Origin: an uncultured Gammaproteobacteria bacterium
Lineage (GTDB): Bacteria > Pseudomonadota > Gammaproteobacteria > UBA9214
Reading direction: 5' to 3'
NCBI GenBank assembly: GCA_963827755.1
Contig: CAWHCQ010000004.1
Span: 64,001-128,000, forward strand
Length of the DNA stretch: 64,000 nucleotides
Both the position numbers and the translations under genes were made by a program. Positions within the stretch are counted from its first letter, which is position 1, and every line of letters starts with the position of its first letter. Shown one piece after another: positions 21,543 through 36,649 of the stretch. The notes under the pieces are model-generated. The model made no database searches, was not told the origin of the DNA, and worked only from the letters and a program-made list of their open reading frames with translations.

Positions 21543-21561
21543 TCAGCATGTCTTTCATGTC

Positions 21562-22017: not shown

Positions 22018-22024
22018 ATCGGCC

Positions 22025-22992: not shown

Positions 22993-22999
22993 GACCGAG

Positions 23000-23480
23000 A
23001 TGACGCCGAGGATAAATCCGCGGCTGTTGCTGCACCCCGTGGACTGCCTGGCGCTGGGATTTGGCAGCGGGCTGGTGCCGCGTGCCCCGGGGACCGCGGG
23101 GACGCTGGTTGCGATCCCGCTGTACCTGCTGCTGCAGACGCCTTTCGCTGAATCTCTATCTGCCGCTGGTCATCGGGCTGTTCCTGCTCGGAATCCCGAT
23201 TTGCGCCCACACCGCACGGCGTCTCGGTGTGCATGATCATCCCGGGATTGTCTGGGACGAAATTGTCGGTTACCTGGTGACCATGACCCTTGCACCCGCC
23301 GGGTTGGGTCTGGGTTGCCGCGGGATTTGTCCTGTTCAGGCTGTTCGATGTTATCAAACCCTGGCCGATCAGCTGGTGTGACCGGCGGGTACACGGTGGC
23401 TTCGGGATTATGCTGGATGATTTGCTGGCGGGTGTGATGGCGGCAGCAGTATTGCAATTGGTTGTTGTTTTATTTGTAGG
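23000..23480 (+). CDS. pgpA: phosphatidylglycerophosphatase A, apparent frameshifts (~23140, ~23300); 3' end uncertain
   Basis: GFGSGLVPRAPGTAGT, HDHPGIVWDEIVG, FRLFDVIKPWPI and GGFGIMLDD over three frames; the last frame reads on into the repeat element. Confidence 0.88.
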
Positions 23481-23501
23481 GGCGCCTTGCAGGCGCGATT
23501 A

Positions 23502-23803
23502 TTATTTGATGCGGGCTTTCGCTGGTCGCTCCCGGCATCCATGCCTCCCGCGACACTTGTACATCCATGTACATCGCGCACGGCGAGATACTTTTCTTTG
23601 CTCCGCCAAAGAAAAGTATCCAAAAGAAAGGCGGCCCGAAGGCTTGCCCGCTACTTGATCTACAAGCCCGCTTCGCAGGCTTGCCCATGCGCTTCTCGCG
23701 AAAACCGGCGCATGCGCAACTCGCAATCTCGCTGCGCTCGAAAGCTCAGACAGGGCGCATGCTTCATCCGGTTTTCACTGCGATGCTCGGCTGCGCCTAC
23801 GGG
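23502..23803 (+). repeat. structured dispersed repeat (MITE-like), copy 1; 254-bp core plus a 48-bp insert
   Basis: Reverse complement of 34837-35090 with about 4 substitutions by eye; internal hairpins such as ACTTTTCTTTG-CTCCGC-CAAAGAAAAGT. Confidence 0.9.
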
Positions 23804-24014
23804 AGTAGTTTAAAACCGTGGAATGTCCCGAATTGCTCGTATTCCGGTCGTTTAGCCTCTGCTTATATAATCAATGACTTAAAGGCGGGAGACGACCCAA
23901 AGACGACGTTTAGCGCTTGGTAATATAGATATTGCGGGCGTATATTGAAGTTTCCAGTTAAATAAATAAACAAGACTGGCAACAACTAATAATAGGTTTG
24001 CTGGAGAAATCACT

Positions 24015-24857
24015 ATGAAGAAGTCGCATTCATTAGCCTCGATAAGCGCCGCTATTATTATGTTCCTGTCAACAGCAACGTCTGCTGCGTTGATTGATCG
24101 CGGTGATGGCTTGATCTATGACAATGTACTGAATATCACCTGGCTGCAGAATTCATTCCTGGCTGCGAGTAATACGTTTGGTTTGCCGACTGGTGTGAGT
24201 CTGGGTACACATCCTTCCGACAGCAGCGGTTTTAATGGAATCATCTATTCCATAGGCACCATGAACTGGCCCGGCGCTCTGCACTGGATCGACGCCATGA
24301 ACGCTGACGGCGGCACGGGTTATAAGGGGTTTAACGACTGGCGTCTGCCGATAATGAGTCCCGTCAATGGCAGCAGTTTCAATACAACGTTGAGCAGCGA
24401 CGCCACGACTGATATGGGTACCGCCCCGACTACCACTGATGGGTCGGACGGTGGCTGGCGCGATGGCAGCAACAACCCGGTCTCAGAGATGGGACACATG
24501 TACTACGTGAACCTGGCCAACCTTGGATTGTGTGATCCAGCCGTACCTTATTGTACCTTCCAGACCGGCTGGGGTCTGAATAACACCAGCTTTGTCGATG
24601 CAGAGACCGGCCTGACGGTGTCGCTTGATATTAACCAGAGCGGTAGCGGCTACTGGTTCGGTACGGAGTTAAATTCCAGTACCGCGTGGGGCTTCGGCTT
24701 AAACGTTGGCAGTCAGGTCCAGGCCAGCGGCGATAAGGACTTCACCTCCGCCTATGTTTGGGCTGTGCGTCCCGGCGATGTGCCGATACCCGCCGCGGTG
24801 TGGCTGTTCGGCTCCGGCCTGCTGGGACTAGTAGGGATAGCTAGGAGGAAGTCATGA
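24015..24857 (+). CDS. DUF1566-like exported protein with a VPLPA-CTERM sorting signal
   Basis: Signal peptide, LIYDNVLNITWLQ and DWRLP motifs, C-terminal VPIPAAVWLFGSGLLGLVGIARRKS. Confidence 0.88.
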   Translation: MKKSHSLASISAAIIMFLSTATSAALIDRGDGLIYDNVLNITWLQNSFLAASNTFGLPTGVSLGTHPSDSSGFNGIIYSIGTMNWPGALHWIDAMNADGGTGYKGFNDWRLPIMSPVNGSSFNTTLSSDATTDMGTAPTTTDGSDGGWRDGSNNPVSEMGHMYYVNLANLGLCDPAVPYCTFQTGWGLNNTSFVDAETGLTVSLDINQSGSGYWFGTELNSSTAWGFGLNVGSQVQASGDKDFTSAYVWAVRPGDVPIPAAVWLFGSGLLGLVGIARRKS

Positions 24858-25513
24858 AGAAATCACGTCTGTTGGGTGCTGTGTGTGCATCCTTACTCCT
24901 CCTGTGCACCTCAGTGACGCAGGCAACAATCGTAATAATTGAACCTGATAATTATCTACCGGGGCAAGCTCTAACTAACGTGATTTCCGGAGTTACCTTG
25001 TCGGTTGCAAATGGGAGTGGAGTGCCTCAGTTAAATGACCAAGTTGAAGCTTTCCAAGGTAACTTTTCATCAACCGGAAGCTTGGTATTTGGGAGGCAGG
25101 TGGTACCTTTCATTCCCGATGATAACTGGTTTCTTACCGATATTTTCGTTCACTCAATCTTACGCGCTGACTTTAACGTGCCGGTAGATGCGGTTTCCAT
25201 TGATGTAATATCAGATACAACAGGGGATGAGGGAGCGCTGCTGGCCTACGATGCATCGGGTACACTGTTGGATACCGCCGTGGTCAGTCTTGGTAACCCC
25301 GGCACGTTTGCGACAGCTACCATTAGTCGCCCAACGGCAGACATTGCCTATATACTCGCTGGCGGCTATCCGGTTGTCTCTAGTCCGCCTTTTAACGTCG
25401 TTGCGCTCGACAATCTTCAATTCAATGTTATCCCCATCCCCCCAGCCCTCTACCTCTTCGGCTCCGGCCTACTTGGTCTAGTCGGTATGGCTAGGCGCAA
25501 AAAAGCGGCTTAA
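24854..25513 (+). CDS. exported protein with a VPLPA/PEP-CTERM sorting signal
   Basis: Signal peptide; C-terminal LDNLQFNVIPIPPALYLFGSGLLGLVGMARRKKAA. Confidence 0.88.
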   Translation: MKKSRLLGAVCASLLLLCTSVTQATIVIIEPDNYLPGQALTNVISGVTLSVANGSGVPQLNDQVEAFQGNFSSTGSLVFGRQVVPFIPDDNWFLTDIFVHSILRADFNVPVDAVSIDVISDTTGDEGALLAYDASGTLLDTAVVSLGNPGTFATATISRPTADIAYILAGGYPVVSSPPFNVVALDNLQFNVIPIPPALYLFGSGLLGLVGMARRKKAA

Positions 25514-25535
25514 CACTAAATAAGAATCAACAGGG

Positions 25536-25564
25536 ACGGCGGCTTCGGTCGCCGTATTATATTT
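25536..25564 (+). terminator. probable intrinsic terminator
   Basis: ACGGCGGC-TTCG-GTCGCCGT hairpin followed by an AT-rich tract, after the CTERM genes. Confidence 0.55.
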
Positions 25565-25750
25565 GCTAAAGGTCTGAAAGTGGCCGACTCCAGTCTTCGT
25601 CGGGCGTTGCAACAATTGGTGAGGGGCGAGCCAGGAACGGCAGGTTACCGACCGTACCCGGTCGTTTAGCAAATAACTATCTGATAATTTGCTAAAAGAC
25701 AGGAGCCGACCCTTTCCTGAAGTTCGGCGACTTGGATTGAATGTCTTGAA
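25560..25750. repeat. cluster of ~30-bp imperfect palindromes
   Basis: AAGGTCTG..TGGCCGA..CCAGTCTT, GAACGGCAGG..CCGGTCGTTT and AAGACAGG..CGACCC..CCTGAAGTT, with ATTTGCTAAA/TTTAGCAAAT inverted arms. Confidence 0.65.
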
Positions 25751-25835
25751 GAATAGTAATCAAGCCTAAAAGTAGTAAGAGTGATTGCTCGATAAGCTTG
25801 AGATTCAGGGAAAATGGCGTTAATTCAGCCTACAC

Positions 25836-26264
25836 TCAACCGCTAATATAGGTTTCAAGATTCTTGATCTTGAAGTCCTTCTCAACGATCAGATATTTGA
25901 CGACGTCACCGATCGACACAATGCCGCAGAGGCTGCCGTTGCAAAGTACCGGGAGATGGCGGATACGCTTTTCGGTTATCAGCTGCATGCAATCGTCCAG
26001 CGAGGTTTCCGGCGTGACGGTGGTCAGATCGGTTGACATGAGTTCCCTGACCTTGACCTTGTCGATTTTCTGCCCCTGAAGAACCACCTTCCGGATAACA
26101 TCGCGTTCGGAAACCATTCCGACAACCGCGCCGCCTTCCACCACCACCACTGTTCCCGCGGAAATATCTTCCATTTTTTCGATCGCATCCCGCACCGATG
26201 TGTCCGGGTCCACGGTCAAAACATCGCGTCCTTTGGAATCCAGCAAATTCAATACAGCACCCAT
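25836..26264 (-). CDS. CBS-domain protein
   Basis: Tandem CBS motifs GMVSERDVIRK and RIRHLPV...GIVSIGDVVK; GGAGG RBS. Confidence 0.93.
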   Translation of the reverse strand: MGAVLNLLDSKGRDVLTVDPDTSVRDAIEKMEDISAGTVVVVEGGAVVGMVSERDVIRKVVLQGQKIDKVKVRELMSTDLTTVTPETSLDDCMQLITEKRIRHLPVLCNGSLCGIVSIGDVVKYLIVEKDFKIKNLETYISG

Positions 26265-26416
26265 TACAACCTCCTTGATAATTTATTGATAAACCCCATA
26301 CTTATATTCAGTATATCTGCAAGAACACAAACCTCAAGCCAATCAGTTAATTTATACATAATCCGAAGTATGACATTTTTGAAAAGATATGTAGTCCGTC
26401 TTTAGGCGAACCTGGG

Positions 26417-26580
26417 GGCTTCTACCCCAGCTGCCGGGCACGTCGTATGGCAGAAAGTGCCGCCTTGCTGGTAGATGAAGTATTGCCACATGAGCCCATG
26501 CGCCAATGGGTATTCAGCGTGCCGTTTCCTCTCAGGTTCCTGTTTGCCAGCCAACCCAAAATCATGGGCAAGGCGCTGGA
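26417..26580 (+). pseudogene. IS91/ISCR-family transposase N-terminal remnant
   Basis: GFYPSCRARRMAESAALLVDEVLPHEPMRQWVFSVPFPLRFLFASQPKIMGKAL matches the recalled ISCR segment GFCPSCGARRMAESAALLVDEV.P..PMRQWVLS.PF.LRFLFA; truncated at both ends. Confidence 0.85.
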
Positions 26581-26691
26581 GCAACAATCCGCTGAAATAA
26601 AAACGCCGGAGCAGAACACAGAGGTCGGGCTAAAACCCGCCGGTTATGCGTAAAAGCATTAAAAGAATACAGTACCCTTTAAGCACGACGT

Positions 26692-26832
26692 GAACATCCG
26701 GTTTCGCAGGAAGCTGACGTTCGCGAGTAGGGTGGTGTATGACGTGTATCCGAACTCGGACGTTCAGAAAACCAATTCCAGAGTTTCCTCTGGCCGCTTG
26801 GTGATACTAAATGCCATCTGCATGCTGACGTG
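26692..26832. repeat. cluster of ~30-bp imperfect palindromes
   Basis: GAACATCCGGTTTCGCAGGAAGCTGACGTTC (26692-26722) and TATGACGTGTATCCGAACTCGGACGTTCAG (26738-26767). Confidence 0.6.
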
Positions 26833-26913
26833 GCCTGCTCCCTGATTTTGTACTACAGTAGCAACTGATTTTCGGACTGCCGCTATATCCATCTATTGAC
26901 GTTCGCCCAAGTC

Positions 26914-27756
26914 ATGCTCAGGCAAAGCTATCTTCTTATTGCGATTCTATGTCTCGGCGTTTTCGCCGGATACTATCTGTTGCGTGTTGTTTCACCACAA
27001 CCGGGTAGTCCAAATGCCGAAGCACCACAGGGTACGTTGGAGTTCGACCGAGAGTATAAAGACTATACGGATGTTACGCTTACCCGATTGCAGCAGCGAC
27101 TCGAGCAAGCAGAGCAGGAGCGGGTATGGCTGGCCGAACGAATTGCAGCACTGGAGGCGGTGACAGGGAAACCCGAGACGTATCCTGACACCGGAACCGG
27201 GACACCGGCAACTGAGGCAAACGAGGTAATGGAATCCACTGCACCACCACCGACCTTTCGCACCAGCGTCGAAGCCCTGATCGAGACCGGTATCCCGGAG
27301 GAGCAGGCGGCCCGCATCCAAGCGTATCTTGATGAGTATGACCTGAAGCAGTTGTATCTGCAGGACCTCGCCAGCCGCGAGGGCTGGCTCAATACCGCCC
27401 GCTACCGCAAGGAACAGAGCGAGACCCGGAATGCCTACCAGGATTTACGCTCGGAGATCGGGGACGATGCCTACGATCGCATGCTCTATGCCCTTGGACG
27501 GACCAACCGGGTCGTAGTGCGCGACATCATGCAGAACTCGACCGCTGAGCAATACGACCTGCGGGCAAACGACCGGATCATCGAGTATGACGGCCAGCGG
27601 GTGTTCACTGGCCAGGAACTGAACACGCTGGTCACCCAAGGGACTGCCGGTGCGCCAGTGCTATTGCGGGTGCAGCGGGATGAACAGCAACTCGAGTTCT
27701 ACCTCCCACAGGGGCCGATTGGCATCAGGCTGGCCACCAGCCGAGAACAACCCTAG
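26914..27756 (+). CDS. membrane-anchored PDZ-domain protein
   Basis: N-terminal TM helix, coiled coil, C-terminal PDZ-like segment (NSTAEQYDLRANDRIIEYDGQRV...GPIGIRL). Confidence 0.8.
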   Translation: MLRQSYLLIAILCLGVFAGYYLLRVVSPQPGSPNAEAPQGTLEFDREYKDYTDVTLTRLQQRLEQAEQERVWLAERIAALEAVTGKPETYPDTGTGTPATEANEVMESTAPPPTFRTSVEALIETGIPEEQAARIQAYLDEYDLKQLYLQDLASREGWLNTARYRKEQSETRNAYQDLRSEIGDDAYDRMLYALGRTNRVVVRDIMQNSTAEQYDLRANDRIIEYDGQRVFTGQELNTLVTQGTAGAPVLLRVQRDEQQLEFYLPQGPIGIRLATSREQP

Positions 27757-27795
27757 ATAAGGTTGGAGGGAGTGAAACTACAGCATTAGTAACAA

Positions 27796-27819
27796 GGCTC
27801 CTTCAGGAGCCGTTTTTTC
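27796..27819 (+). terminator. intrinsic terminator
   Basis: GGCTCCT-TC-AGGAGCC hairpin followed by GTTTTTT. Confidence 0.75.
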
Positions 27820-27823
27820 TTTG

Positions 27824-27980
27824 GGATTGAATGTCCGAGTTTAGCACTGCATCTCGGAAGTTCGCATGAATTTGGGGAATGACAGGTTCTGGCCGATCCC
27901 GGTAGTACAGTAATCATCCCCAGAGAGATGACTGGCATCTGCTGAACGACCGATTCTGCCCCGATTCAGGTCGTTCCAGG
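27824..27980. repeat. cluster of ~30-bp imperfect palindromes
   Basis: GAATGTCCGAG..CTCGGAAGTTC, GAATGACAGGTTCTGGCCGATCCCGGTAGTAC and TGAACGACCGATTCTGCCCCGATTCAGGTCGTTC. Confidence 0.65.
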
Positions 27981-28124
27981 TAGACGCTTACAACGCCGTA
28001 ATCCCAGTTGTGTTCAGTCCTTTCAGAAGCTGTTGAACCGATCCGAAGACAACTTCGTAAACAACATTGTATGCTGGATACTCTTATATCCAATATAGTG
28101 CTAGATGGTTTGATGGATTAGTTC

Positions 28125-28985
28125 ATGGTACACACAACCGGAAGTCTGCTACAACCAAGTTCCTGGCGCATCGCGGCGGCGCTCTTGCCGGGTCTGCTGG
28201 TGGGGGGGCTCATGTTGGCGAACGGTCCAATCCCGCAACCCCTGAGCTATCACGACTTTGCCGATACCCGAGTTTTGCTTGGTATCCCCCACGCCGGAAA
28301 TGTGTTGACGAATCTGGCTTTTTTCATCGTCGGCGGGTGGGGGTTGTGGTTTCTCGCGCAACCAAATTCTTCAGGACGATCTTTCATCGATGGCCGCGAG
28401 CGCCGACTTTTCCGGTATTTCTTCACGGGTGTGTTTCTTACAGCTTTCGGTTCCGGCTGGTATCACCTGGAACCGGACAATTACAGCTTGGTCTGGGATC
28501 GCCTGCCGATGGCAGTGGCTTTCATGAGCATCTTCGCGGTCATGATCGCTGAACGCGTGAAGTTGAATATTGGCGTCGCCTTGTTAGGGCCACTGGTGGC
28601 AATTGGAGTGGCAAGCGTGCTGTGGTGGATCTGGACAGAGCATGCGGGTCAGGGGGATCTGCGTTGGTATTTGATGGTGCAGTTCTACCCCACCCTTACC
28701 ATTGCGCTGATGCTTCTGTTACTGCCCACGCCATACACAAGAGGCAACGACTATTGGGGACTGTTTTTATTTTACGCGGCGGCCAAGGTCGTGGAAGTAC
28801 TCGACCACGAGATATTCAACTTGTCCCAGGGTTTGGTTAGTGGCCACAATCTAAAACACCTGTTCGCAGCAGCTGGTGCTGCGTGGCTCTTGCGGATGCT
28901 CTGGTTGCGCCAGGCACGCCGTCCCCTGATACACCGGGGAAGCGTCCTTGCTACAGCTGAAGTATTCAGCCCGGAGGAGGAGTGA
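28125..28985 (+). CDS. alkaline ceramidase-like (CREST family) membrane hydrolase
   Basis: PIPQPLSYHDFADTR, NVLTNLAF, GSGWYH, WDRLPM and SGHNLKH motifs. Confidence 0.88.
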   Translation: MVHTTGSLLQPSSWRIAAALLPGLLVGGLMLANGPIPQPLSYHDFADTRVLLGIPHAGNVLTNLAFFIVGGWGLWFLAQPNSSGRSFIDGRERRLFRYFFTGVFLTAFGSGWYHLEPDNYSLVWDRLPMAVAFMSIFAVMIAERVKLNIGVALLGPLVAIGVASVLWWIWTEHAGQGDLRWYLMVQFYPTLTIALMLLLLPTPYTRGNDYWGLFLFYAAAKVVEVLDHEIFNLSQGLVSGHNLKHLFAAAGAAWLLRMLWLRQARRPLIHRGSVLATAEVFSPEEE

Positions 28986-29027
28986 CGCCAAAATTCCAAA
29001 ATTTGGCCCATACTTAAATCCGGTGAC

Positions 29028-29212
29028 CAATGTCACCTTTCTTGCATAGTTGCCGTTGAGGGTTTTTGGCGAGAAGGCGGCAACGGGTCTGTTCCCGCTT
29101 TTTAACAGCGGCTAATATTGGAAATGGCTAAACGGTGACTATCGACCCAATATAGCGGAAGTACAGCAAATTGAATTGTATGTCCGAGATTGCGGCGAAA
29201 GCTGACGTTAGC
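29028..29212. repeat. cluster of ~30-bp imperfect palindromes
   Basis: CAATGTCACCTTTCTTGCATAGTTGCCGTTG, AAGGCGGCAACGGGTC.., AAACGGTGACTATCGACCC..GCGGAAGT and TATGTCCGAGATTGCGGCGAAAGCTGACGTTA. Confidence 0.65.
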
Positions 29213-29273
29213 ACCCAAGTTCACATTTCCCTATCAGCAAATTTCGATTGTTCGCGAACAGATTTATTGAACG

Positions 29274-29669
29274 CTAATTATTTCTCGCCCCCTGCTTCAC
29301 CCACAAATGCAGAATCTCAATCTCATGTTCTGTTATGGGCTTGTGTGTATTTTTCAATTTAAGAGACAAATTACCGGCACGACCCTCGACCAGCATATTA
29401 AGGGGGCTCGTTTTACTATTACCCGGTACAATCACAGGCCCATATATCGATCCCTCCATGAGGGCCTCATAACTATCCATTTCTAGTCCCGTCTTTCTAT
29501 AACCCCCACCGTTGGGCGGTGTATGGCAATCTATGCATTTATCCACAAATATAGGGTGCACATCTCGTTGATAGCTAATCTGCGGTGTGGTTGTACAACC
29601 TGAAGAATAAAGAGAGGTTAGGAGTGTAGTTATAAAACTAACGGTGTATGTATAGTTCATTGGTCTCAT
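29274..29669 (-). CDS. small monoheme c-type cytochrome (planctomycete cytochrome c-like), probable lipoprotein
   Basis: SYQRDVHPIFVDKCIDCH (CxxCH), GPVIVPGNS and WVKQGA; SSGC lipobox-like. Confidence 0.85.
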   Translation of the reverse strand: MRPMNYTYTVSFITTLLTSLYSSGCTTTPQISYQRDVHPIFVDKCIDCHTPPNGGGYRKTGLEMDSYEALMEGSIYGPVIVPGNSKTSPLNMLVEGRAGNLSLKLKNTHKPITEHEIEILHLWVKQGARNN

Positions 29670-29680
29670 AGGGCATTACG

Positions 29681-30412
29681 TCAATCAGCCAACACAATTT
29701 GGGAAAGATCACTTATGCAATCCTTTCCTTCTTTTAAAAGCTTTTTCAAAAGTCTCGGATCATGCTCCATATCCAATTCTAACGTGATCATCGCATGGCA
29801 CTCGATTCTTTTGAAAGAGGCTAAAGTATCATTTTTCATCCGTTCTTTCATGATGTTAACGCCAATGACAGGAGGAACGAAAAAATTCGGCTTCATACTT
29901 GATTCATGAAGCACCCGGGTACGTGCCCCCTGAGGGTGTATTTCCCAGGTGGAAAAGCCCGATTCAAAGCTGCTGAGTTCCGGAATGGTTTTTATTGTAA
30001 TGAGTTCTTCCCCAGCCTCTACAATATCCCCGACCCAGTCAATTGTAATGTGGAACGGTCCTATCAAGTGCACAGAATGATTCCGCACCCTAATCACTTC
30101 ATCACGATCAGAAGGAAGCATCTCGATTTCGGTAATAGCTGGATTTATTCGATAGCCATGCTTGTAATCAGTTATTACCTCATATACGTAATCCTTAGGC
30201 GCATCGAGTATATATACAACCCGCAGGCGGTACTCACCATTCGCCTCTATTACGGACAGTTCTTCAAGCTCACCAGCAGTGGAAATAGCATTGAATAGTA
30301 GCAAAGCAGACAGGGTGCATATCCAGGTCACTGAGGTGCATAGCATTGAATGCCGCGACTCAGCTTGCCTGAGAAATAATGCCATCAACTGCTGCATTAT
30401 CGTCATCATCAA
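29681..30412 (-). CDS. SRPBCC/START-fold exported protein
   Basis: LDAPKDYVYEVITDY, WEIHPQGARTRV and PNFFVPPVIG patterns; start uncertain. Confidence 0.65.
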   Translation of the reverse strand: MMMTIMQQLMALFLRQAESRHSMLCTSVTWICTLSALLLFNAISTAGELEELSVIEANGEYRLRVVYILDAPKDYVYEVITDYKHGYRINPAITEIEMLPSDRDEVIRVRNHSVHLIGPFHITIDWVGDIVEAGEELITIKTIPELSSFESGFSTWEIHPQGARTRVLHESSMKPNFFVPPVIGVNIMKERMKNDTLASFKRIECHAMITLELDMEHDPRLLKKLLKEGKDCISDLSQIVLAD

Positions 30413-30534
30413 GGGGTAATCATCCTGTGTTACTTTAAGGAAGTTTGTTGGCTGTCGATGAGGAGAAAATGGAGACTATCCTACTGCTCCGTCGTGAAAG
30501 GGAATCAGAGGAGTTGTATCTCGAGATAATGAAA

Positions 30535-30849
30535 TTAACTTATAAGCGTTTCATTGGAATTACTTTCTCCCCTGTTGTCAATCCAGATGACCTTGATCGT
30601 GTCACCAATCTTGCCATCCAGCAGCCAGAACGACAGATAGGGAGTTTCCGCTATACCTTTTCCCCAATTGGCAGACATAACGACCCTTCCATTATGTTCA
30701 CAGAGAATTCTCTGAATATAGTGCTCCGGTATAAGTATGCCCGTTAGTTTATCCTTACGCCGGCCTGTTTCCATTGGGTGATTGAACAGCATCTTGATTT
30801 GATGCTGTCCTTTTTTCAGTCGGGCTTTAATTTTAACTGAGTTAGTCAT
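30535..30849 (-). CDS. soxZ: thiosulfate oxidation carrier SoxZ
   Basis: HPMETGRRKD, IPEHYIQ, PYLSF, GDTIKVIWIDNRGE; AGAGGA RBS before ATG 30849. Confidence 0.92.
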   Translation of the reverse strand: MTNSVKIKARLKKGQHQIKMLFNHPMETGRRKDKLTGILIPEHYIQRILCEHNGRVVMSANWGKGIAETPYLSFWLLDGKIGDTIKVIWIDNRGESNSNETLIS

Positions 30850-30875
30850 ATCCTCTGTAACCTGGGTGCTGTTAG

Positions 30876-31343
30876 TCAACCGCCACAGCCTCCGGCTGTT
30901 ATCTTGGTTTTCTTCCTTGCACTGTATAACCTGCCATCAGCCTTTACTATGACTACAACATGGGTTGTTTCAGCCAGCCTAATACGTGTGTTCAAGCGGT
31001 TGGCTATCATGTCGGTCATTTCGAAGCTGGCCAATAGTGGAATGGGATTCTTTTCAGAAAACAGACTAATCGATTCAACATTATCGAACCCGTCTGCTCG
31101 AACATTTATTGGTACGTTGGCAGCGTTCTCGGAAACCTCGCCTAACTCGATCTCGATGAGTTCACTTGGTTCTGCATCGGAAGCACCCAAAAGTCTGGTC
31201 ATTGCATCCTGTAAGGACTCGGTAGTAAAGGCAGTCTCCGGCCATGTGGCGATGACTTCCCGCGGTATCAGAAGCCCCTTGCTCGCCGCTAATAGGGGCG
31301 CACCTGATGCCAGAGCAGAAATTAGAAAGAGCCGTCGTTTCAT
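30876..31343 (-). CDS. soxY: thiosulfate oxidation carrier SoxY (Tat-exported)
   Basis: MKRRLFL twin-arginine signal and C-terminal GGCGG swinging arm. Confidence 0.93.
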   Translation of the reverse strand: MKRRLFLISALASGAPLLAASKGLLIPREVIATWPETAFTTESLQDAMTRLLGASDAEPSELIEIELGEVSENAANVPINVRADGFDNVESISLFSEKNPIPLLASFEMTDMIANRLNTRIRLAETTHVVVIVKADGRLYSARKKTKITAGGCGG

Positions 31344-31400
31344 TCGCTAACCCTATGGTTATTAAATACAGGACAGTAAGTACAATCTATGTACTGTTAC

Positions 31401-31745
31401 TCAGCAACCATCACCCTCGACCATAACTTCACCGGTTACATTGTCATGCTTGGCGTTGCCTTCATCATCGGTGACGATTGTCCTGACAAACATCATTGAT
31501 TCAATGCGGTCAAACTGGGTATCCATTGCCTTCGCGATCTGCTTATCAGTCAACCCATCATAGATCATGATGCGACCGCGCTGTTCCAGCTTTAGTTGAT
31601 TATCCGGCGGGTTGAACAGCAGCTTTTCCTGCCAGTCTCCGGCGGCGGCCGGTGGTACGGCAGTACATCCGGCAGTACACAGTAGTGTGGTGATGCCAGT
31701 AGCCAGTACCAGCGTCTGCAGGGTATGAGTCAGAGTGTTTTTCAT
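31401..31745 (-). CDS. hypothetical lipoprotein ending in EGDGC
   Basis: TAGC lipobox-like motif, GGAG RBS, co-oriented upstream of soxY. Confidence 0.8.
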   Translation of the reverse strand: MKNTLTHTLQTLVLATGITTLLCTAGCTAVPPAAAGDWQEKLLFNPPDNQLKLEQRGRIMIYDGLTDKQIAKAMDTQFDRIESMMFVRTIVTDDEGNAKHDNVTGEVMVEGDGC

Positions 31746-31895
31746 GTCACTCCGACTATGATCAGTTTATGGTTAATCGAAAACATTGTAGACACCCTTA
31801 AATTGTTTGTTAGTGTATATATATTCAAGCTTTTAGCTTGTTCGAGAATCAATGGTGTCAGCAAACTCAGCGTACACCGCCAACCCGCCCCGCGC

Positions 31896-31937
31896 ATCGG
31901 GGCGCTCCCCCATTTTAGGGGTGGGGGATTCCCCCAT
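31896..31937. promoter_or_regulatory. tandem palindromic operator-like sites
   Basis: ATCGGGGCGCTCCCCCAT (31896-31913) and GTGGGGGATTCCCCCAT (31921-31937); a third copy at 32446-32462. Confidence 0.5.
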
Positions 31938-31951
31938 GGCAGCCAATGCGA

Positions 31952-32395
31952 CTACTCGGAATCGAGCCCGGCCCGCATCTTCGGACTCACGTACGTCTCC
32001 CCGTCGAGCACGCAGCGGATCGCGATCAACAGCGTCTCGCCCATCTCCTGCTTGCTGACGTAGCCATTGGCGCCGGCGCGCAAGGCGCGACGTGCGTATC
32101 GAGGGGCCGCGTGCATGGAGAGCACCAGGATCGGCAGGTCCGCGTGGCGTGCGCGGATATCTTTTATCAGCCCGAAGCCATCGGTTTCCGCCAGCCAGAG
32201 ATCGGTGATCACCAGGTCGGGTTGGCTGCTGGCGATGGCGTCGAGGCCATCGTGGTGCGTGGACTCGGCACAGACACCGAGATCGGGCTCGTTATCGATC
32301 AGCGCGCTCAGACCGCGACGCACCAGGGGATGGTTATCGATGATCAGGAGCCGCTGCCGGGTCTTCGTTGCAGGTGGTGTGACGATGCTGTCCAT
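31952..32395 (-). CDS. stand-alone NarL-type receiver domain (no HTH)
   Basis: LLIIDNHPLVRRGL, PDLVITD, LVLSMH and GANGYVSK; paralogous to the next gene but ends before the HTH. Confidence 0.85.
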   Translation of the reverse strand: MDSIVTPPATKTRQRLLIIDNHPLVRRGLSALIDNEPDLGVCAESTHHDGLDAIASSQPDLVITDLWLAETDGFGLIKDIRARHADLPILVLSMHAAPRYARRALRAGANGYVSKQEMGETLLIAIRCVLDGETYVSPKMRAGLDSE

Positions 32396-32445
32396 GACCT
32401 GACAGGGTGGACCATAAGTGCGGCTATGCGTTACCTATATATAGC

Positions 32446-32462
32446 ATGGGGGAAAGCCCCAT
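32446..32462. promoter_or_regulatory. palindromic operator-like site
   Basis: ATGGGGGAAAGCCCCAT upstream of the receiver-only gene, similar to 31921-31937. Confidence 0.45.
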
Positions 32463-32523
32463 GGGTCAGGCTGCCTGATTTGTATGGTAAACACCGGATG
32501 CGGGCGGCACCCGGCAACGCGTA

Positions 32524-33213
32524 TTACCGATCTCCTTTCCCGGCTTCAACCCATTGCGTTGCACGTTGGGCGAGTTCGGCAGAGGATTCCAGCACCAGTT
32601 TCTGCTTGATGTGCTGGCGGTGGGATTCAATCGTCTTGATGCTCAGGGTGAGGGTCTTTGCAATCTGGCGCGTGCCCTGGCCTTCACCGATGAGTCGAAA
32701 CACCTGCAACTCGCGGTCGCTGAGCGCATCCATGGACGCGTCCGCTTGCAGCGTTCGCCCGCCCAGGTATTTCGCGGAAAGCCGCGCCTCGAGCTTGTCG
32801 CCTATGTACATCTCGCCGTTAAGCACCCGGCGCATGGCAAACAACAATGTCTCGTCGAGTTGTTGCTTGGTGACATAGCCCAGGGCGCCGGCCCGCAGGG
32901 CGCGCTCGGCATACACCGACTCATTGTGCATCGAGAGCACCAGTGCCGGAATCTTCGGGTGGCGTTTTTTCATGGTCTTGATCAGGTCCAGGCCGTGAGA
33001 GCCATCGAGCTCCAGATCGACCAGCACCAGGTCGGGCCGGCACGCCCGGACAACCTTGAGCGCGGCCTCGCAGCAGGCGGCCTCCCCGCAGACTTCGAGG
33101 CCGGGCTCGGACTCGATCAGGGCGGTCAGGCCGCGACGCATCATGGGATGATCGTCGACGATGAGAACCGCCTTGCTGGCCGGAGAGCCGGTTTCAGGTG
33201 TCTTCGCGTTCAT
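32524..33213 (-). CDS. NarL/LuxR-family response regulator
   Basis: VDDHP receiver and LSDRELQVFRLIGEG...IKTIESHR LuxR HTH. Confidence 0.95.
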   Translation of the reverse strand: MNAKTPETGSPASKAVLIVDDHPMMRRGLTALIESEPGLEVCGEAACCEAALKVVRACRPDLVLVDLELDGSHGLDLIKTMKKRHPKIPALVLSMHNESVYAERALRAGALGYVTKQQLDETLLFAMRRVLNGEMYIGDKLEARLSAKYLGGRTLQADASMDALSDRELQVFRLIGEGQGTRQIAKTLTLSIKTIESHRQHIKQKLVLESSAELAQRATQWVEAGKGDR

Positions 33214-34321
33214 GGTCCGGGGCCTCGGCCGTTTCAGGCGTCTCGGGAATGGGAAAGGTGCAGCTGACCGCCGTACCGCGCAGGCTACGGCGTCGCACCT
33301 CCAGGGACCCGCCGATCAAACGCGAGCGGTAGGCCATGGTGTGCATCCCCACCCCGTCCGCCGCGCCCGCCCCCTCGGGTATGCCGACGCCATCGTCGCG
33401 GATGCGCAGCAGGCCCTCTCCATCGTTCACGCCCAGGCTGCATTCGATCCGCTCTGCGCGTCCGTGGGATACGGCATTGCTCATCGCCTCTTGCGCGATG
33501 CGATAGAGGTGCGCCTCGATCTCAGGGCAATTACAGTCCATGGGCCAGTCACACTCGAGCGTGCAGGGGATGCCAAAGCGGTCATGAATATTGAGTGCCA
33601 GGGTCTCGAGCGTCGCGTCGAGACCGGCCTTGTTCAGGCCCTGCGGGCCGAGACCGCGCGCAAGGTCGCGGGCCTCGCCGATGGCCTCGTTCAGCAGTGT
33701 GTTGATCTCGCGGGCGTCAACTGACGTGGCGGATTCAGGGCCCCGCGCCAGCTTTCTGGAAAGCGTCGCGGTGAGGGCCGCAATACCGGCCAGCGTTTGG
33801 CACAGGCCATCATGCAGTTCCCGGCCCAGGCGTTCCTTTTCCTGGTCGACGATCTCGAGGACCTCCCGCTCCAGCCGCTTCTGGCGGGTGACGTCGCGTG
33901 CGTTGGCGTAGATCTGTTGCCGCTCCGGCACAGGCCGCGAGTTCCACCGCAGCCAGCGATACGAGCCATTCTTGTGGCGATAGCGATTCTCGAACAGGAC
34001 TACCTCGGCACTCTTGTTAAGCAGGCCAACTTGCGCCAGCGTGGCCTCGCGGTCCTCGGGGTGTACGAACTCGATGAAGGGTTTGGCCTGCAGCTCCTCC
34101 GGCGTCCAGCCCAATAGGGTCGTCCACTGCGGGTTCAAGTGCTTGAAGTATCCATCGAACCCGGCAATGCACAGCAGGTCGAGCGACTGGTCGAAGAAGC
34201 GGGTGTACTCGTCCTCGGCCCGCTCCATCCGTGCGGACTGGAGTTTCAGGTTCTCGTTCTCCCGGCGGGAGGCGTCGAGATCCTCGATGAGCTCGGCTCT
34301 TGTGGGTTGTTCTTGTTCCAT
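33194..34321 (-). CDS. cytoplasmic PAS sensor histidine kinase (HisKA_3 type)
   Basis: PAS (FVHPEDRE), ERLGRELHDGLCQ, YRIAQEAMSNA and DDGVG. Confidence 0.93.
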   Translation of the reverse strand: MEQEQPTRAELIEDLDASRRENENLKLQSARMERAEDEYTRFFDQSLDLLCIAGFDGYFKHLNPQWTTLLGWTPEELQAKPFIEFVHPEDREATLAQVGLLNKSAEVVLFENRYRHKNGSYRWLRWNSRPVPERQQIYANARDVTRQKRLEREVLEIVDQEKERLGRELHDGLCQTLAGIAALTATLSRKLARGPESATSVDAREINTLLNEAIGEARDLARGLGPQGLNKAGLDATLETLALNIHDRFGIPCTLECDWPMDCNCPEIEAHLYRIAQEAMSNAVSHGRAERIECSLGVNDGEGLLRIRDDGVGIPEGAGAADGVGMHTMAYRSRLIGGSLEVRRRSLRGTAVSCTFPIPETPETAEAPDHEREDT

Positions 34322-34419
34322 TTTCGAGTCGGGCTTCGTTTATTGTTAGGGGAGCGTGTTGGGTAGCATAACCTACCCGCATATATGAAAGGTAATAGTC
34401 ATTTCCCGTCAAGGCCTGC

Positions 34420-34580
34420 TTGTTGAATAGCCACCGACCTCGCTATTCACCCCAGAATAGACCGCTGCCCCACATATTACAGGGGTCGATGCCGATCAGG
34501 CCTAAAGCACCTACTTTTGGTGAAAACCCGCCTCAACCACCGGGCCCAGGCCATCGTAGCCTGGCGCTTCATAGCCGAGT
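34420..34580 (-). pseudogene. degenerate IS91/ISCR transposase C-terminal remnant
   Basis: KRQATMAWARWLRRVF followed, after a frameshift, by IGIDPCNMWGSG; resembles the recalled ISCR segment RRAAMTWAQRLKRVFNIDIETCxxCGG. Confidence 0.6.
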
Positions 34581-34610
34581 TTGGGTCAGCGGCTGAGCGA
34601 GCACTTGGCG

Positions 34611-34803
34611 GAATGGTCATTTTCGAAGTGTCGGTGTTGTAGATCGCAACCAGGTTATGAATGTCTCCTTTTCTATAAACTTGCCGTTCAGAACTGTAAC
34701 CGGGAATGGCTGGAGTTGGCCGATAGTCGCCAACCAGGAGCCCTGCATCAGCTGGGTTTTCTGTGAACGTGGAACGGCAACTTTTCCGAAAGAGGACATT
34801 TAG
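34611..34803. repeat. cluster of ~30-bp imperfect palindromes
   Basis: TGAATGTCTCCTTTTCTATAAACTTGCCGTTCA, GAATGGCTGGAGTTGGCCGATAGTCGCC and GAACGGCAACTTTTCCGAAAGAGGACATTT (reverse complement of the first type). Confidence 0.65.
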
Positions 34804-34836
34804 CAAGTCAGCATGGACAGACTATCTGTTTTATCC

Positions 34837-35090
34837 CCCATAGGCGCAGCCGAGCATCGCAGTGAAAACCGGATGAAGCATGCGCCCTGTTTGAGCTTTC
34901 GAGCGCAGCGAGATTGCGAGTTGCGCATGCGCCGGTTTTCGCGAGAAGCGCATGGGCAAGCCTGCGAAGCGGGCTTGTAGATCAAGTAGCGGGCAAGCCT
35001 TCGGGCCGCCTTTCTTTTGGATACGTTTCTTTGGCGCAGCAAAGAAAAGTATCTCGCCGTGCGCGACCAGCGAAAGCCCGCATCAAATAA
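34837..35090 (-). repeat. structured dispersed repeat (MITE-like), copy 2
   Basis: 254-bp reverse complement of copy 1 without the 48-bp insert. Confidence 0.9.
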
Positions 35091-35116
35091 AACTCTTCGC
35101 CCGCCAGGGCAAAACC

Positions 35117-35825: not shown

Positions 35826-35855
35826 AATCAGGGCACGGCAGCCGATAGGTAACAG

Positions 35856-36515: not shown

Positions 36516-36545
36516 GCCTGCGAAAAGAAGTGCCTATGTCGCCTG

Positions 36546-36638
36546 GTAGGATGGGTAAAGGAGCAAAGCGACGTACCCGTCAATGCACGACGCAAACCAT
36601 TCACCCCTGACGGGTACGCTGCGCTTTACCCGTCCTGC
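36546..36638. repeat. REP doublet (same family as 11105-11248)
   Basis: GTAGGATGGGTAAAGGAGCAAAGCGACGTACCCGTCA and the inverted TGACGGGTACGCTGCGCTTTACCCGTCCTGC, between convergent genes. Confidence 0.85.
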
Positions 36639-36649
36639 TAAAAGCAGGC

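What the first reader, a model, noticed from the sequence alone, without database searches (positions are those of the whole stretch)
23821..34803. Cassette-like array: nearly every gene module of the island is separated by clusters of related ~30-bp palindromes
Seen: at least 15 imperfect palindromes of the general form AA(T/C)G(T/G/A)C-N(15-20)-G(A/C/T)(C/A)GTT, often with TGGCCG or CGACCC/GGGTC in the loop. They occur at 23821 and in clusters at 25560-25750, 26692-26832, 27824-27980, 29028-29212 and 34611-34803. One subtype, AATGTC-N2-CTTT-N-(A/C)TTGCCGTT-like, recurs at 29028, 34658 and inverted at 34772. The clusters fall at module junctions (CTERM pair | CBS + IS91 remnant | PDZ | ceramidase | sox+TCS block + IS91 remnant). 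I saw none in the housekeeping backbone. The modules are unrelated in function, differ in base composition and lie in both orientations. Established: integron attC sites are ssDNA hairpins with AAC...GTT cores but are longer (about 55-140 nt) and usually occur one per co-oriented cassette; REPs carry a GTAG foot, which these lack. Inference: these are recombination or nicking sites of an integron-like but distinct gene-capture system acting on ssDNA hairpins, with the enzyme supplied in trans (an IS91-type HUH enzyme or a tyrosine recombinase).
Basis: partly seen in the sequence, partly recalled or inferred. Interest (0 to 1): 0.82.

Follow-up and report, generated by a model that had tools for sequence, protein, structure and literature searches.

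The report
Palindrome-bounded gene modules, integron-like
The short palindromes between accessory gene blocks belong to a genus-specific repeat family, and their centres mark where gene blocks are exchanged; they sit among integron recombination sites and resemble them, but fail the test for being such sites.

Summary

The palindromes are pieces of a genus-restricted composite repeat. It includes a ~130-nt mini-element that I call M2, found in 18 of 36 sister genomes.

They are not canonical attC sites. A covariance model built from 19 genus attC sites finds 0 hits in the window but 15 in an independent integron array. Even so, the composite sits in real attC arrays on the same strand in 7 of 7 loci that hold both.

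Module homology between genomes and metagenome contigs ends at the palindrome centres (TGGCCGA / CGACCC), not at the GTT feet. 13 of 55 breakpoints lie at such cores, against 4 expected.

The arms do not covary, so a maintained hairpin is not shown. They look like interchangeable half-sites.

No recombinase lies in cis. The IS91 link is weak. IS91 paired with a tyrosine recombinase co-occurs with M2 in 10 of 18 genomes that have M2, against 2 of 18 that lack it.

Best reading: non-autonomous modules exchanged at the site centres by an unidentified enzyme acting in trans. This is a new variant of integron-like and MITE/MIC-like systems.

The parts
23480..23803 (+). Left arm of a high-copy palindromic dispersed repeat. 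The island sits at this repeat's apex.
   Evidence: 230-nt arms 23574-23803 and 34837-35066 are 98% complementary. More than 20 copies exist in the genome, normally with only ~50-100 nt between the arms. G019:C301 joins window 23479 to 35096 with 14 nt between.
34837..35095 (-). Right arm of the same palindromic dispersed repeat.
23822..23852 (+). Palindrome of hp2 type (AATGTCC...GGTCGTT).
   Evidence: part of a truncated M2 copy (nhmmer hit at window 23843-23926)
23878..23915 (+). hp3-type site; core CGACCC at 23893-23898.
   Evidence: (family D2)
23899..25580 (+). Module 1: two secreted proteins that share a C-terminal sorting-signal-like repeat (24015-24857, 24854-25513).
   Evidence: (D6)
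25565..25613 (+). hp1-type site; core TGGCCGAC at 25581-25588, followed by the GCCGAC/GTCGGGC helix.
   Evidence: helix paired in 86% of cells
25581..25712 (+). M2: a ~130-nt gene-less mini-element bounded by the two cores. It is the most conserved and most abundant unit of the family.
   Evidence: 21 matches in G012; present in 18 of 36 sister genomes
25636..25666 (+). hp2 palindrome inside M2.
25691..25728 (+). hp3-type site; core GCCGACCC at 25705-25712. The 91-95% homology with G013:C326 starts here.
25740..25767 (+). hp4-like palindrome (AATGTCTTGA...TCAAGCC).
25713..26790 (.). Module 3: CBS-pair protein (25836-26264, minus strand) plus an internal fragment of an IS91-like transposase (about 26397-26640).
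26693..26831 (+). Cluster of palindromes at 26693-26721, 26741-26765 and 26810-26831, with a TGGCCGC core-like motif at 26791-26797.
   Evidence: Homology with G012:C67 starts at 26753, the centre of the 26741-26765 palindrome.
26896..27756 (+). Module 4 gene: PDZ-domain protein.
   Evidence: homologues lie in other contexts in 5 further loci
27830..27862 (+). Palindrome AATGTCCGAG...CTCGGAAGTT.
27878..27910 (+). Site without an M2 insert; core TGGCCGA at 27890-27896.
   Evidence: a metagenome contig ends at 27890
27945..27975 (+). Palindrome AACGACC...GGTCGTT.
27890..29148 (+). Module 5: ceramidase-like membrane protein (28125-28985), bounded by the two cores.
   Evidence: X1 contig of 1355 nt covers exactly 27890-29148. 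X1, X3 and X4 contigs run on, unlike the window, beyond 29148-29151 (table 8). Pfam match is weak: 22.8 bits, below the cut-off.
29029..29057 (+). hp0-type palindrome.
29127..29167 (+). hp3-type site; core CGACCC at 29143-29148. The 95% homology with G012:C30 starts here.
29170..29204 (+). hp4-type unit (ATGTCCGAG...GACGTTAGC), conserved at C14:4690, C36:985, C12:81560 and C35.
29149..34716 (-). Module 6: cytochrome c, SRPBCC protein, SoxZ, SoxY, response regulator(s) and a PAS histidine kinase.
   Evidence: Only the first 1.3 kb (29143-30481) is shared with G012:C30 and G013:C431.
34383..34640 (-). 3' remnant and terminal region of an IS91-like element.
34660..34688 (+). hp0-type palindrome.
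34705..34723 (+). Left half-site plus core TGGCCGA (34717-34723). Left of the core matches C36:1854-1949; the sequence right of the core differs.
34773..34800 (+).

Best explanation
The palindromes are junction sites of a genus-specific family of non-autonomous DNA modules. Each site has two interchangeable half-sites of about 12 nt (consensus AA.G.C.GG, mirrored as ..G.C.TT, often extended to GCTAAA / TTYAGC). They flank a short core, TGGCCGA(C/T) or (N)CGACCC.

Modules run from one core to the next. They are one- to several-gene blocks, plus a gene-less 130-nt mini-element (M2). They are joined, exchanged and reordered by site-specific breakage and joining at or next to the core. The enzyme would act in trans and recognise the half-sites. 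The result is a co-oriented array that resembles an integron cassette array and in other genomes is physically embedded in one. The crossover, however, lies at the centre of the palindrome and not at the GTT foot.

Shown here:
- the repeat family;
- its restriction to a few accessory loci and to one genus;
- sharp homology breaks at the cores;
- co-orientation within arrays;
- co-location with attC arrays;
- failure of the attC model on these sites;
- lack of arm covariation.

Inferred, not shown:
- that the breaks are enzymatic and site-specific;
- that the substrate is double-stranded;
- the identity of the enzyme. Candidates are the tyrosine recombinase that travels with IS91 copies in this genus, or the integron integrase acting on non-canonical sites.
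For: 1. Non-random family. Nine profile hits in the own genome fall in only 5 contigs. The composite matches in 17 of 24 same-genus genomes, against 1 marginal hit in 16 genomes of other families. M2 is present in 18 of 36 sister genomes, with 21 matches in G012.

2. Breaks at cores.
- Window against G013:C326: identity falls from 91-95% to repeat-family level exactly at GCCGACCC, 25705.
- Window against G012:C30: the same at CGACCC, 29143, where the left neighbour is not M2 at all.
- The C36 composite equals window 34641-34723 plus window 25581-25750, joined at GGCCGA.
- Contigs from runs of 3 studies that carry the ceramidase module diverge from the window at 29148-29151, and one contig ends at 27890.
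- 13 of 55 internal homology endpoints lie within 12 nt of a core motif. The random mean is 3.98 and 0 of 2000 randomisations reach 13.

3. Any left half occurs with any right half.

4. Every contig with two or more profile hits has all of them on one strand: 14 contigs or loci.

5. The composite and classical attC sites share a strand in 7 of 7 loci that hold both. In G017:C6 and G012:C30 the composite starts directly after an attC GTTAGAAC.

6. Arms do not covary in any pairing. This fits half-sites that belong to different modules or are read as duplex DNA.

7. Group II introns are inserted at the core itself, TTTGGC|CGA in C14 and its counterpart on the other strand in C36. The core is therefore a recognised target.
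Against: - No recombinase or transposase lies in any array examined. The only recurrent mobile-element protein is a group II intron reverse transcriptase.
- G012, which has the most copies, has only 5 tyrosine recombinase matches, none on the array contigs fetched, and no serine recombinase.
- Not all breaks lie at cores: 42 of 55 do not by the motif test. Examples are the right ends of the PDZ and CBS modules and window 30481.
- Other palindrome centres with different sequence also show half-site swaps (hp4, and 26753). One break lies at a GTT foot (L017/L023). A single core sequence is therefore too simple.
- The core motifs used were chosen after the breaks had been seen.
- The metagenome joints have short sides (21-25 nt) at 90% likeness and are weak.
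- No excised circle and no filled-versus-empty pair at one orthologous site was found.
Confidence: 0.5

Rival explanations
1. They are decayed or miniaturised attC sites of the genus' chromosomal integron, making the island a cluster of attC-like sites without an integrase. Cassettes were moved by the integron integrase, and the centre breaks are later damage such as insertions at hairpin tips or deletions.
For: - AAY...GTT feet are present.
- The left half-sites carry GCCGAC, as the genus attC consensus does. By eye the AAY-to-GCCGAC spacing is the same in hp1-type sites (consensus lines).
- They share a strand with attC in 7 of 7 loci that hold both.
- The integron integrase is over the curated cut-off in 18 of 37 genus genomes. 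The own genome has a broken intI with a classical array on C40.
- One break lies at a GTT foot.
Against: - The attC model gives 0 hits in the window and in four other own-genome loci, but 15 in an unseeded control array. With filters off, the best score is 6.9 bits and it falls inside a gene.
- The sites are 28-41 nt long.
- The arms do not covary.
- Breaks lie at the centre.
- No composite was found in the 20 kb next to intI in 6 arrays.
- M2 presence is independent of intI: 9 of 18 genomes with M2 against 10 of 18 without.
- M2 copies are 80-95% alike, which suggests recent spread rather than decay.
Confidence: 0.15
2. They are the inverted-repeat ends of miniature (MITE) and cargo-carrying (MIC-like) transposons moved by a DDE transposase. 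Each palindrome is simply two abutting element ends.
For: - The ends of M2 and of the ceramidase module are inverted repeats at consensus level.
- M2 is short, gene-less and multicopy.
- Lack of arm covariation is expected if the arms belong to different elements.
- MICs without a transposase are documented in Xanthomonas (passages of PMC4337579).
Against: - The sequences flanking M2 show no target duplication that varies together between the two sides across the 22 copies (by eye).
- No element with these ends and a transposase gene was found.
- A Tn3-family transposase occurs in 1 of 37 genomes.
- IS110-family loci share no sequence with the repeat.
- Strict co-orientation is not expected of ordinary inverted-repeat transposons.
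Confidence: 0.1
3. They are passive REP/BIME-like structural repeats. Module mosaicism arises from ordinary homologous recombination between repeat copies, with no dedicated enzyme.
For: They are clustered imperfect palindromes in intergenic DNA, genus-specific, and mosaic in unit order.
Against: - There are only 9 profile hits in 5 loci of a 2.85-Mb genome.
- None lie in the backbone of the window.
- The genome already has a separate GTAG-type REP and 4 Y1-transposase matches, none next to these units.
- Identity drops within a few bases of the core, not inside the repeat. It also drops at junctions that lack M2 on one side, which homologous exchange within a repeat does not predict.
Confidence: 0.1
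4. One reading: nicking sites of an IS91-type HUH enzyme that moves adjacent DNA by rolling-circle transposition.
For: - Two IS91-like remnants lie in the island.
- Classical IS91 over the curated cut-off is found in 10 of 18 genomes with M2 against 2 of 18 without. My hand-computed one-sided hypergeometric p is about 0.006, and related genomes are not independent.
- In the 5 copies inspected, these IS91 copies are paired with a tyrosine recombinase.
Against: - The window's remnants belong to a different IS91-like family of ~500 aa. Its intact copies (G013:C350 and 3 in G052:C5) have no composite at their ends and end in an unrelated terminal sequence.
- Neither the own genome nor G012 has a classical IS91 assembled.
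- The association may only reflect overall load of mobile elements.
Confidence: 0.07

Closest known systems
Integron attC sites and cassette arrays, including attC clusters that lack an integrase (IntegronFinder paper PMC4889954, seen as search listing and abstract only)
   Same: - Co-oriented imperfect palindromes with AAC/GTT-like feet separate promoter-independent gene modules.
- The enzyme is supplied in trans.
- The units sit physically inside real attC arrays on the attC strand.
- The left half carries the GCCGAC motif of the genus attC consensus.
   Different: - They are about half the length (28-41 nt).
- They are rejected by an attC covariance model.
- There is no paired-arm covariation.
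- The exchange point is at the centre, not at G|TT.
- Modules may hold several genes on either strand with their own regulators.
- Their presence does not follow that of intI.
MITEs and mobile insertion cassettes (passages of PMC4337579; review PMC10969869 seen as listing only)
   Same: Short, gene-less multicopy element (M2), plus gene-carrying modules with similar inverted ends and no transposase.
   Different: - No target duplication is recognisable.
- No parent transposon was found.
- Orientation is strictly uniform within arrays.
- Insertion is always into the same kind of palindromic site.
Elements that target folded or palindromic sites: IS1111-family IS at attC or REP sites (passages of PMC11187229) and group IIC-attC introns (passages of PMC3001079)
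   Same: Insertion is orientation-specific, at a fixed position of a palindrome. Group II introns here sit exactly in the core.
   Different: - The modules carry neither a DEDD transposase nor a guide-RNA region that I could recognise.
- IS110-family loci of the genus share no sequence with the repeat.
REP/BIME elements with RAYT transposases (recalled; not read here)
   Same: Clusters of imperfect palindromes with mosaic unit order in intergenic DNA.
   Different: - Low copy number, confined to accessory arrays.
- No GTAG foot.
- Not next to Y1 transposase genes.
Xer-dependent dif-like modules of Acinetobacter plasmids (recalled; not read here)
   Same: Gene modules without their own recombinase, bounded by short palindromic sites with a central crossover, moved by a host enzyme.
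   Different: As recalled, those sites are 28 bp, dif-like and alternate in orientation. Here the sites are uniform in orientation and I saw no dif-like sequence. No dif model was run.

Membership tests
integron attC | Inverse-core and core pair at the two ends (AAC ... GTT; the consensus itself is recalled) | tested here: met
   7 island loci carry AAY...GTT ends. Many are extended to GCTAAA / TTYAGC.
integron attC | Overall attC architecture (R and L boxes, spacers, usual length of about 55-140 nt), as captured by a covariance model | tested here: not met
   Model R1 was built from 19 genus attC sites, hand-picked from the candidate lists. It gives 0 hits at E<=10 in the window and in L028-L031. 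It gives 15 hits in L034, which supplied no seeds, and 7 in L033. With filters off on 23000-36000, there are 3 hits of at most 6.9 bits, none at a palindrome.
integron attC | Arms maintained as a hairpin (compensatory change) | tested here: not met
   55.9% of cells paired against 57.5% in shuffles for hp1+hp2+hp3. RNAalifold gives -8 kcal/mol with covariation term 0.07.
integron attC | Cassette boundary at G|TT of the right-hand core | tested here: not met
   Boundaries lie at GCCGACCC (25705) and CGACCC (29143-29148), about 20 nt before the GTT foot. One boundary at a GTT foot was seen elsewhere.
integron attC | Array adjacent to intI/attI, or at least within an attC cluster | tested here: inconclusive
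   The window has no intI and no attC. The own genome has a broken intI on C40. In 7 loci (6 from 5 other genomes, 1 a metagenome contig) the composite lies among attC sites. It is absent from the first 20 kb of 6 intI-linked arrays.
REP / REPIN with RAYT | Hundreds of copies spread through extragenic DNA of the whole chromosome | tested here: not met
   9 profile hits in 5 contigs.
REP / REPIN with RAYT | Cognate Y1 (RAYT) gene flanked by the repeats | tested here: not met
   Of 4 Y1_Tnp matches only the one on C11 was inspected; it is flanked by a different, GTAG-type repeat.
MITE / mobile insertion cassette | Terminal inverted repeats shared by gene-less and gene-carrying members | tested here: met
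   The M2 ends TGGCCGACTCCAGTCTT and (reverse complement) GGGTCG.CTCC.GCCTT agree at 13 of 17 positions, by eye. The ceramidase module ends share TGG..CGA.
MITE / mobile insertion cassette | Target-site duplication made at each insertion | tested here: not met
   Variants of the left and right core do not vary together across the 22 copies (by eye).
MITE / mobile insertion cassette | Autonomous parent element with the same ends | tested here: not met
   None among the 380 ORFs of the arrays. Tn3-family transposase in 1 of 37 genomes. IS110 loci are unrelated. MAGs may lack plasmids.
IS91 / ISCR rolling-circle capture | The repeat forms the origin or terminus end of the transposase-bearing element | tested here: not met
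   No composite lies at the ends of intact IS91-like copies. The three G052 copies end in a common unrelated terminal sequence.
IS91 / ISCR rolling-circle capture | Co-occurrence of enzyme and sites | tested here: inconclusive
   10 of 18 genomes with M2 against 2 of 18 without. Genomes are related and incomplete.
serine-resolvase res site | A resolvase gene in genomes that carry the sites | tested here: not met
   PF00239 matched in 1 of 5 genomes searched (G013 only). None in the own genome, G012, G022 or G003.

The most novel reading that the evidence does not exclude
A second cassette-exchange system lives alongside the integron in this genus. Gene modules and a 130-nt empty module carry half-sites at both ends and are cut and rejoined at the centre of the reconstituted palindrome by a recombinase not yet recognised. 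That enzyme might be the tyrosine recombinase that rides with IS91. If so, integron arrays would be editable by two independent site-specific systems with different crossover geometry.
Probability: 0.3. Interest if true: 0.85.

Novelty: new variant of a known kind. Interest (0 to 1): 0.62.

Why it matters
Integrons are the only well-understood system that stockpiles and reshuffles promoter-independent gene cassettes using an enzyme in trans. Here, module boundaries in arrays that partly overlap real integron arrays fall at a different kind of site and at a different position within it.

If an enzyme is found, this would be a new site-specific route for assembling accessory genes in environmental bacteria, and a new small recombination site.

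If not, it still bears on annotation. Arrays can be mosaic in ways that attC-based tools do not see: the attC model built here misses every site in this island.

Tried and rejected
- **Rfam.** No match on 20000-38000 at E<=1. In other own-genome loci only group II intron and tRNA matches.
- **Consensus RNA fold of 22 copies.** Weak, with no covariation.
- **My own hairpin models.** hp1/hp2/hp3 not supported. Pairing of the outer left arm with the outer right arm, which would be expected if M2 had inserted into a pre-existing hairpin, is not supported either: 55.9% against 54.4%, with 153 of 500 shuffles as high. Only the GCCGAC/GTCGGC helix and the spacer hairpin show some signal.
- **Hairpin energy scan.** A strict energy threshold missed most units because they are weak palindromes.
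- **Motif clusters.** The GTTTAGC/GCTAAAC cluster on C11 is an unrelated duplicated locus.
- **Enzyme families.** Serine resolvase, Tn3 transposase, IS110 family, RAYT, and the ends of the IS91-like elements were all checked. None is linked to the sites.
- **Alignment of three integrase-IS91 copies.** It defines the element ends only roughly. I saw one loose resemblance of the left end to a half-site and give it no weight.
- **Strand against replication.** The site strand equals the G-rich strand in 4 of 5 own-genome contigs. This is not significant.
- **Genome-collection scan.** A 15-mer returned 120 chance matches in unrelated taxa and was uninformative.
- **Metagenome-collection scan.** A 27-letter pattern gave only 2 contigs.
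- **Sequencing runs.** All held under a fifth of the sampled words. Parts of the island without contig cover say nothing. The joints 25712>29158, 27899>34735 and 23900>29171 have sides under 30 nt. The link 29150>25719 appears only in table 5c at depth 2.6. These are hints at most.
- **Earlier findings of this scan.** Two look-ups returned nothing.
- **Not run.** IntegronFinder and MEME are not available here. Supplementary files of papers were not opened.

Full report
**1. The observation**

The window is G000:C4:64001-128000. Between 23804 and 34836 lie unrelated gene blocks:
- two secreted proteins with a shared C-terminal signal;
- a CBS protein;
- a PDZ protein;
- a ceramidase-like membrane protein;
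- a block with cytochrome c, an SRPBCC protein, SoxZ, SoxY and a two-component system.

GC content swings from 43 to 66%.

Genome-wide there are 132 loci in 2.85 Mb. Dinucleotide shuffles of the same intergenic DNA give a mean of 0.086, and 0 of 1000 reach 7. Because the pattern was fitted to these instances, the stronger evidence is that related copies exist elsewhere.

**2. Anatomy**

The units are pieces of a longer composite. In my labels it runs as follows:
- hp0, of the form AATGTC...GCCGTT;
- hp1: left arm AATGACAGGAG, core TGGCCGAC, right arm CTCCAGTCTTC, followed by GTCGGGC, which pairs with GCCGAC;
- hp2, AACGGCAGG...GGTCGTT;
- a spacer hairpin;
- hp3: GCTAAAAGGCGGGAG, core .CGACCC, right arm ..CGGAAGTTCAGC;
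- hp4, ATGTCCGAG...GACGTTAGC.

The stretch from the hp1 core to the hp3 core is about 130 nt. I call it M2. It is the best conserved part and has no ORF.

All arms fit one half-site consensus: AA.G.C.GG and its mirror. Left and right halves occur in many combinations, including sites with no M2 between them (window 27878-27910; C14:11433).

**3. Setting of the island**

The island sits at the apex of a separate, high-copy palindromic repeat. Its 230-nt arms (23574-23803 and 34837-35066) are 98% complementary. More than 20 other copies in the genome have only ~50-100 nt between their arms. In G019:C301 the backbone flanks 23479 and 35096 are 14 nt apart, so both that repeat and the island are insertions.

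**4. Distribution**

A profile of hp1-hp3 finds 9 places in the own genome, on 5 contigs: C4, C36, C14, C28 and C35. Most are at contig ends or in an island next to tRNA-Val and an integrase.

By BLAST the composite is present in 17 of 24 same-genus genomes. Among 16 genomes of other families of the class there is one marginal hit. M2 is in 18 of 36 sister genomes at E<=1e-8, with 21 matches in G012.

On every contig or locus with two or more profile hits (14 of them), all hits share a strand.

**5. Relation to integrons**

The genus has integrons. The integrase model is over its curated cut-off in 18 of 37 genomes. The own genome has a broken intI on C40 beside a classical cassette array.

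I built a covariance model from 19 classical attC sites of six arrays. The seeds were hand-picked from the candidate lists by their TAAC...GTTA ends. Results:
- 15 sites in an array that gave no seeds (L034) and 7 in the own C40 array;
- none in the window, and none in the four other own-genome loci that hold the palindromes, at E<=10;
- with filters off, the best island score is 6.9 bits, inside the CBS gene.

So the units are not canonical attC sites. The 20 kb next to intI in six arrays hold no copy of the composite.

However, wherever a fetched locus holds both the composite and classical attC sites, they lie within about 1-2 kb of each other and on the same strand. This is true of 7 of 7 loci: G017:C6, G006:C377, G005:C182, G022:C8, G012:C30, G012:C182 (weak, E 0.022) and one metagenome contig.
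- In G017:C6 the composite lies between attC sites.
- In both G017:C6 and G012:C30 the composite starts right after an attC ...CGTTAGAAC.
- By eye, the left half-sites resemble the left half of the genus attC consensus: an AAY triplet, then GCCGAC at the same distance in hp1-type sites.

The family is therefore a tenant or a relative of integron arrays, not a member of attC.

**6. Where modules break**

- Window against G013:C326 (CBS module): identity is 91-95% to the right of GCCGACCC (25705-25712). Immediately to its left it falls to repeat-family level, and further left it vanishes.
- Window against G012:C30 (cytochrome c / SRPBCC module): 95% identity starts at CGACCC (29143). What lies to the left is M2 in G012 but the ceramidase module in the window.
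- The composite on C36 equals window 34641-34723 joined at GGCCGA to window 25581-25750.
- G017:C6 and G012:C30 share a cassette, its attC and M2, and part exactly at the hp3 core (endpoints L019 1441 and L041 4587).
- In Logan contigs of four runs from four studies, three contigs with the ceramidase module continue for 95-122 nt unlike the window beyond 29148-29151. One 1355-nt contig covers exactly 27890-29148, that is, core to core (table 8). The joints in that call have short sides and I treat them only as hints.

Across 32 HSPs of at least 300 bp and at least 85% identity between loci of different genomes, I kept 55 distinct internal endpoints. Endpoints within 40 nt of a locus end were dropped, and endpoints within 8 nt of each other were merged. 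Of these, 13 lie within 12 nt of a core motif. The random mean is 3.98, the maximum is 12, and 0 of 2000 randomisations reach 13. A few more sit at core variants that my motif missed, or at group II intron junctions within cores.

The motif was defined after I had seen the first breaks, and 42 of 55 endpoints are elsewhere. Other palindrome centres also show swaps: hp4, and 26753 at the PDZ module's left end. One endpoint pair sits at a GTT foot.

The sharp drop at the core, also at junctions that lack M2 on one side, argues against plain homologous exchange within a repeat.

**7. Hairpin or half-sites?**

On 22 distinct full-length copies, hp1, hp2 and hp3 pair in 55.9% of cells. These 22 are the profile hits, out of 63, that span profile positions from 10 or lower to 150 or higher and are not duplicates. 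That is no more than when right arms are dealt out among copies (57.5%), though more than with slid partners (23-41%).

Pairing the outer left arm with the outer right arm gives the same picture: 55.9% against 54.4%. Only the short GCCGAC/GTCGGC helix (86% paired) and the spacer hairpin show some compensatory change.

So the palindromy is a property of the family consensus. A maintained single-strand hairpin is not shown. The data fit half-sites read by a protein, or arms that belong to different modules.

**8. Search for the enzyme**

No recombinase or transposase lies in the window's island. Among 380 ORFs of all array loci, the recurrent families are passenger genes and a group II intron reverse transcriptase.

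- Group II introns are inserted exactly at the core. In C14 the insertion reads TTTGGC | intron | CGAAGG. In C36 it is on the other strand, within an hp3 core. This recalls the attC-targeting lineage of such introns (passages of PMC3001079).
- Serine recombinases: found in 1 of 5 genomes searched.
- Tn3-family transposase: 1 of 37 genomes.
- IS110 family: 14 of 37 genomes, with no sequence shared with the repeat.
- The window's IS91-like remnants belong to a ~500-aa family whose intact copies have no composite at their ends.
- Classical IS91 is paired with a tyrosine recombinase in the 5 copies inspected. It is over the cut-off in 10 of 18 genomes with M2 and in 2 of 18 without. My hand-computed one-sided hypergeometric p is about 0.006. 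The genomes are related, incomplete MAGs, and overall mobile-element load is a confounder.
- intI shows no association with M2: 9 of 18 against 10 of 18.

**9. Reading**

The best-supported account is site-specific exchange of non-autonomous modules at the centres of palindromic sites built from interchangeable half-sites, by an enzyme supplied in trans (confidence 0.5). Rivals:
- decayed or non-canonical attC sites worked by the integron integrase (0.15);
- abutting ends of MITE/MIC-type transposons (0.10);
- passive REP-like repeats with homologous exchange (0.10);
- IS91-type rolling-circle capture (0.07).

What is shown and what is inferred is set out under the best explanation.

**10. Novelty**

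I searched the paper library four times:
- gene cassettes / palindromic / miniature inverted-repeat / genomic island;
- mobile insertion cassette / MITE / passenger genes;
- IS1111-attC / attC / insertion;
- sedentary chromosomal integron / attC / MITE / cassette array.

No listing described centre-crossover palindromic sites bounding modules inside integron arrays. In one search none of the 12 listed papers held the word MITE at all. These are keyword searches of an open-access subset, and no supplements were seen, so this is not proof of absence.

I rate the finding a new variant of known kinds (integron-like array, MITE/MIC-like modules), of real interest, but without an enzyme or an observed recombination event.

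Noticed in passing
window 23480-23803 and 34837-35095; also e.g. G000:C19:9780-10361, C52:3534-4217, C17:39738-40520: A ~500-700-nt palindromic dispersed repeat with more than 20 copies. Its hairpin apex is an insertion hot spot: it holds the 11-kb island here, and another repeat family at C17:~40010-40180 and C45:~12410-12515.
   Followed up: partly
window 11105-11252 and 36532-36644: A further repeat family (GGTAGGATGGGTAAAGGAGC...), with a 59-nt tandem duplication at 11135-11252. It is the same family that occupies the apex of the palindromic repeat on C17 and C45.
   Followed up: no
window 23476-23498; G000:C11:211500-211530 and 213960-213990: A classical GTAG-type REP (GTAGG.GCGCCTTGCAGGCGCGA). 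The genome has four Y1-transposase (RAYT-like) matches. The one on C11 is flanked by this REP, and an IS110-family element in G012:C289 also sits beside it.
   Followed up: partly
G000:C40:95643-96103 and about C40:90800-95500: A broken integron integrase: the N- and C-terminal parts are present and the middle is missing. Beside it is a classical cassette array whose cassettes encode small proteins not scanned against family models; by eye (recalled) they resemble a BrnT-like toxin fragment, a GFA-family protein, an acetyltransferase and glyoxalase-like proteins.
   Followed up: partly
G000:C14:1718-4548 (+) and G000:C36:4400-4875 (-): Group II introns inserted exactly in the core of the palindromic sites (TTTGGC|GTGCG ... 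CTCTAC|CGAAGG). The C14 copy has two separate D1-D4 matches and may be an intron within an intron. A further intron sits in the loop of an hp0 unit in G022.
   Followed up: partly
L072/L073 (G052:C5:50185-51693, 57920-59350, 67108-67827) and L071 (G013:C350): An IS91-like family with a ~500-aa transposase that scores only 35-65 bits on the IS91 model. The three copies in G052:C5 end at the same terminal sequence ...GCTTCCTATAC.
   Followed up: partly
G022:C8:410701-412675; G015:C98:2531-4343; G013:C212; G013:C393; G051:C13:196571-~198600: Classical IS91 transposase genes are each preceded by a ~300-aa tyrosine recombinase on the same strand. The G022 and G051 copies share the ends of an element of about 2.8 kb.
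   Followed up: partly
L048 = G003:C63:9000-14500, about 2000-2200, 3390-3500 and 4100-4260: The PDZ-protein module is here flanked by three copies of a repeat that looks like the 3' part of a tRNA gene (...GGGACTCGAACC...). This suggests tandem accretion of small islands at a tRNA site, a different way of stacking the same module.
   Followed up: no
window 32111-32347 and 32926-33165: Two stretches 76-78% identical, 815-818 nt apart, within the regulator genes of the sox block. They are probably two paralogous response-regulator genes in tandem.
   Followed up: no
window 24783-24850 and 25433-25500: The two adjacent secreted proteins share a 68-nt stretch, 74% identical, that encodes their C-terminal hydrophobic sorting-type tail. 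Only the first protein has a weak Pfam match (Lcl_C, below the cut-off).
   Followed up: no
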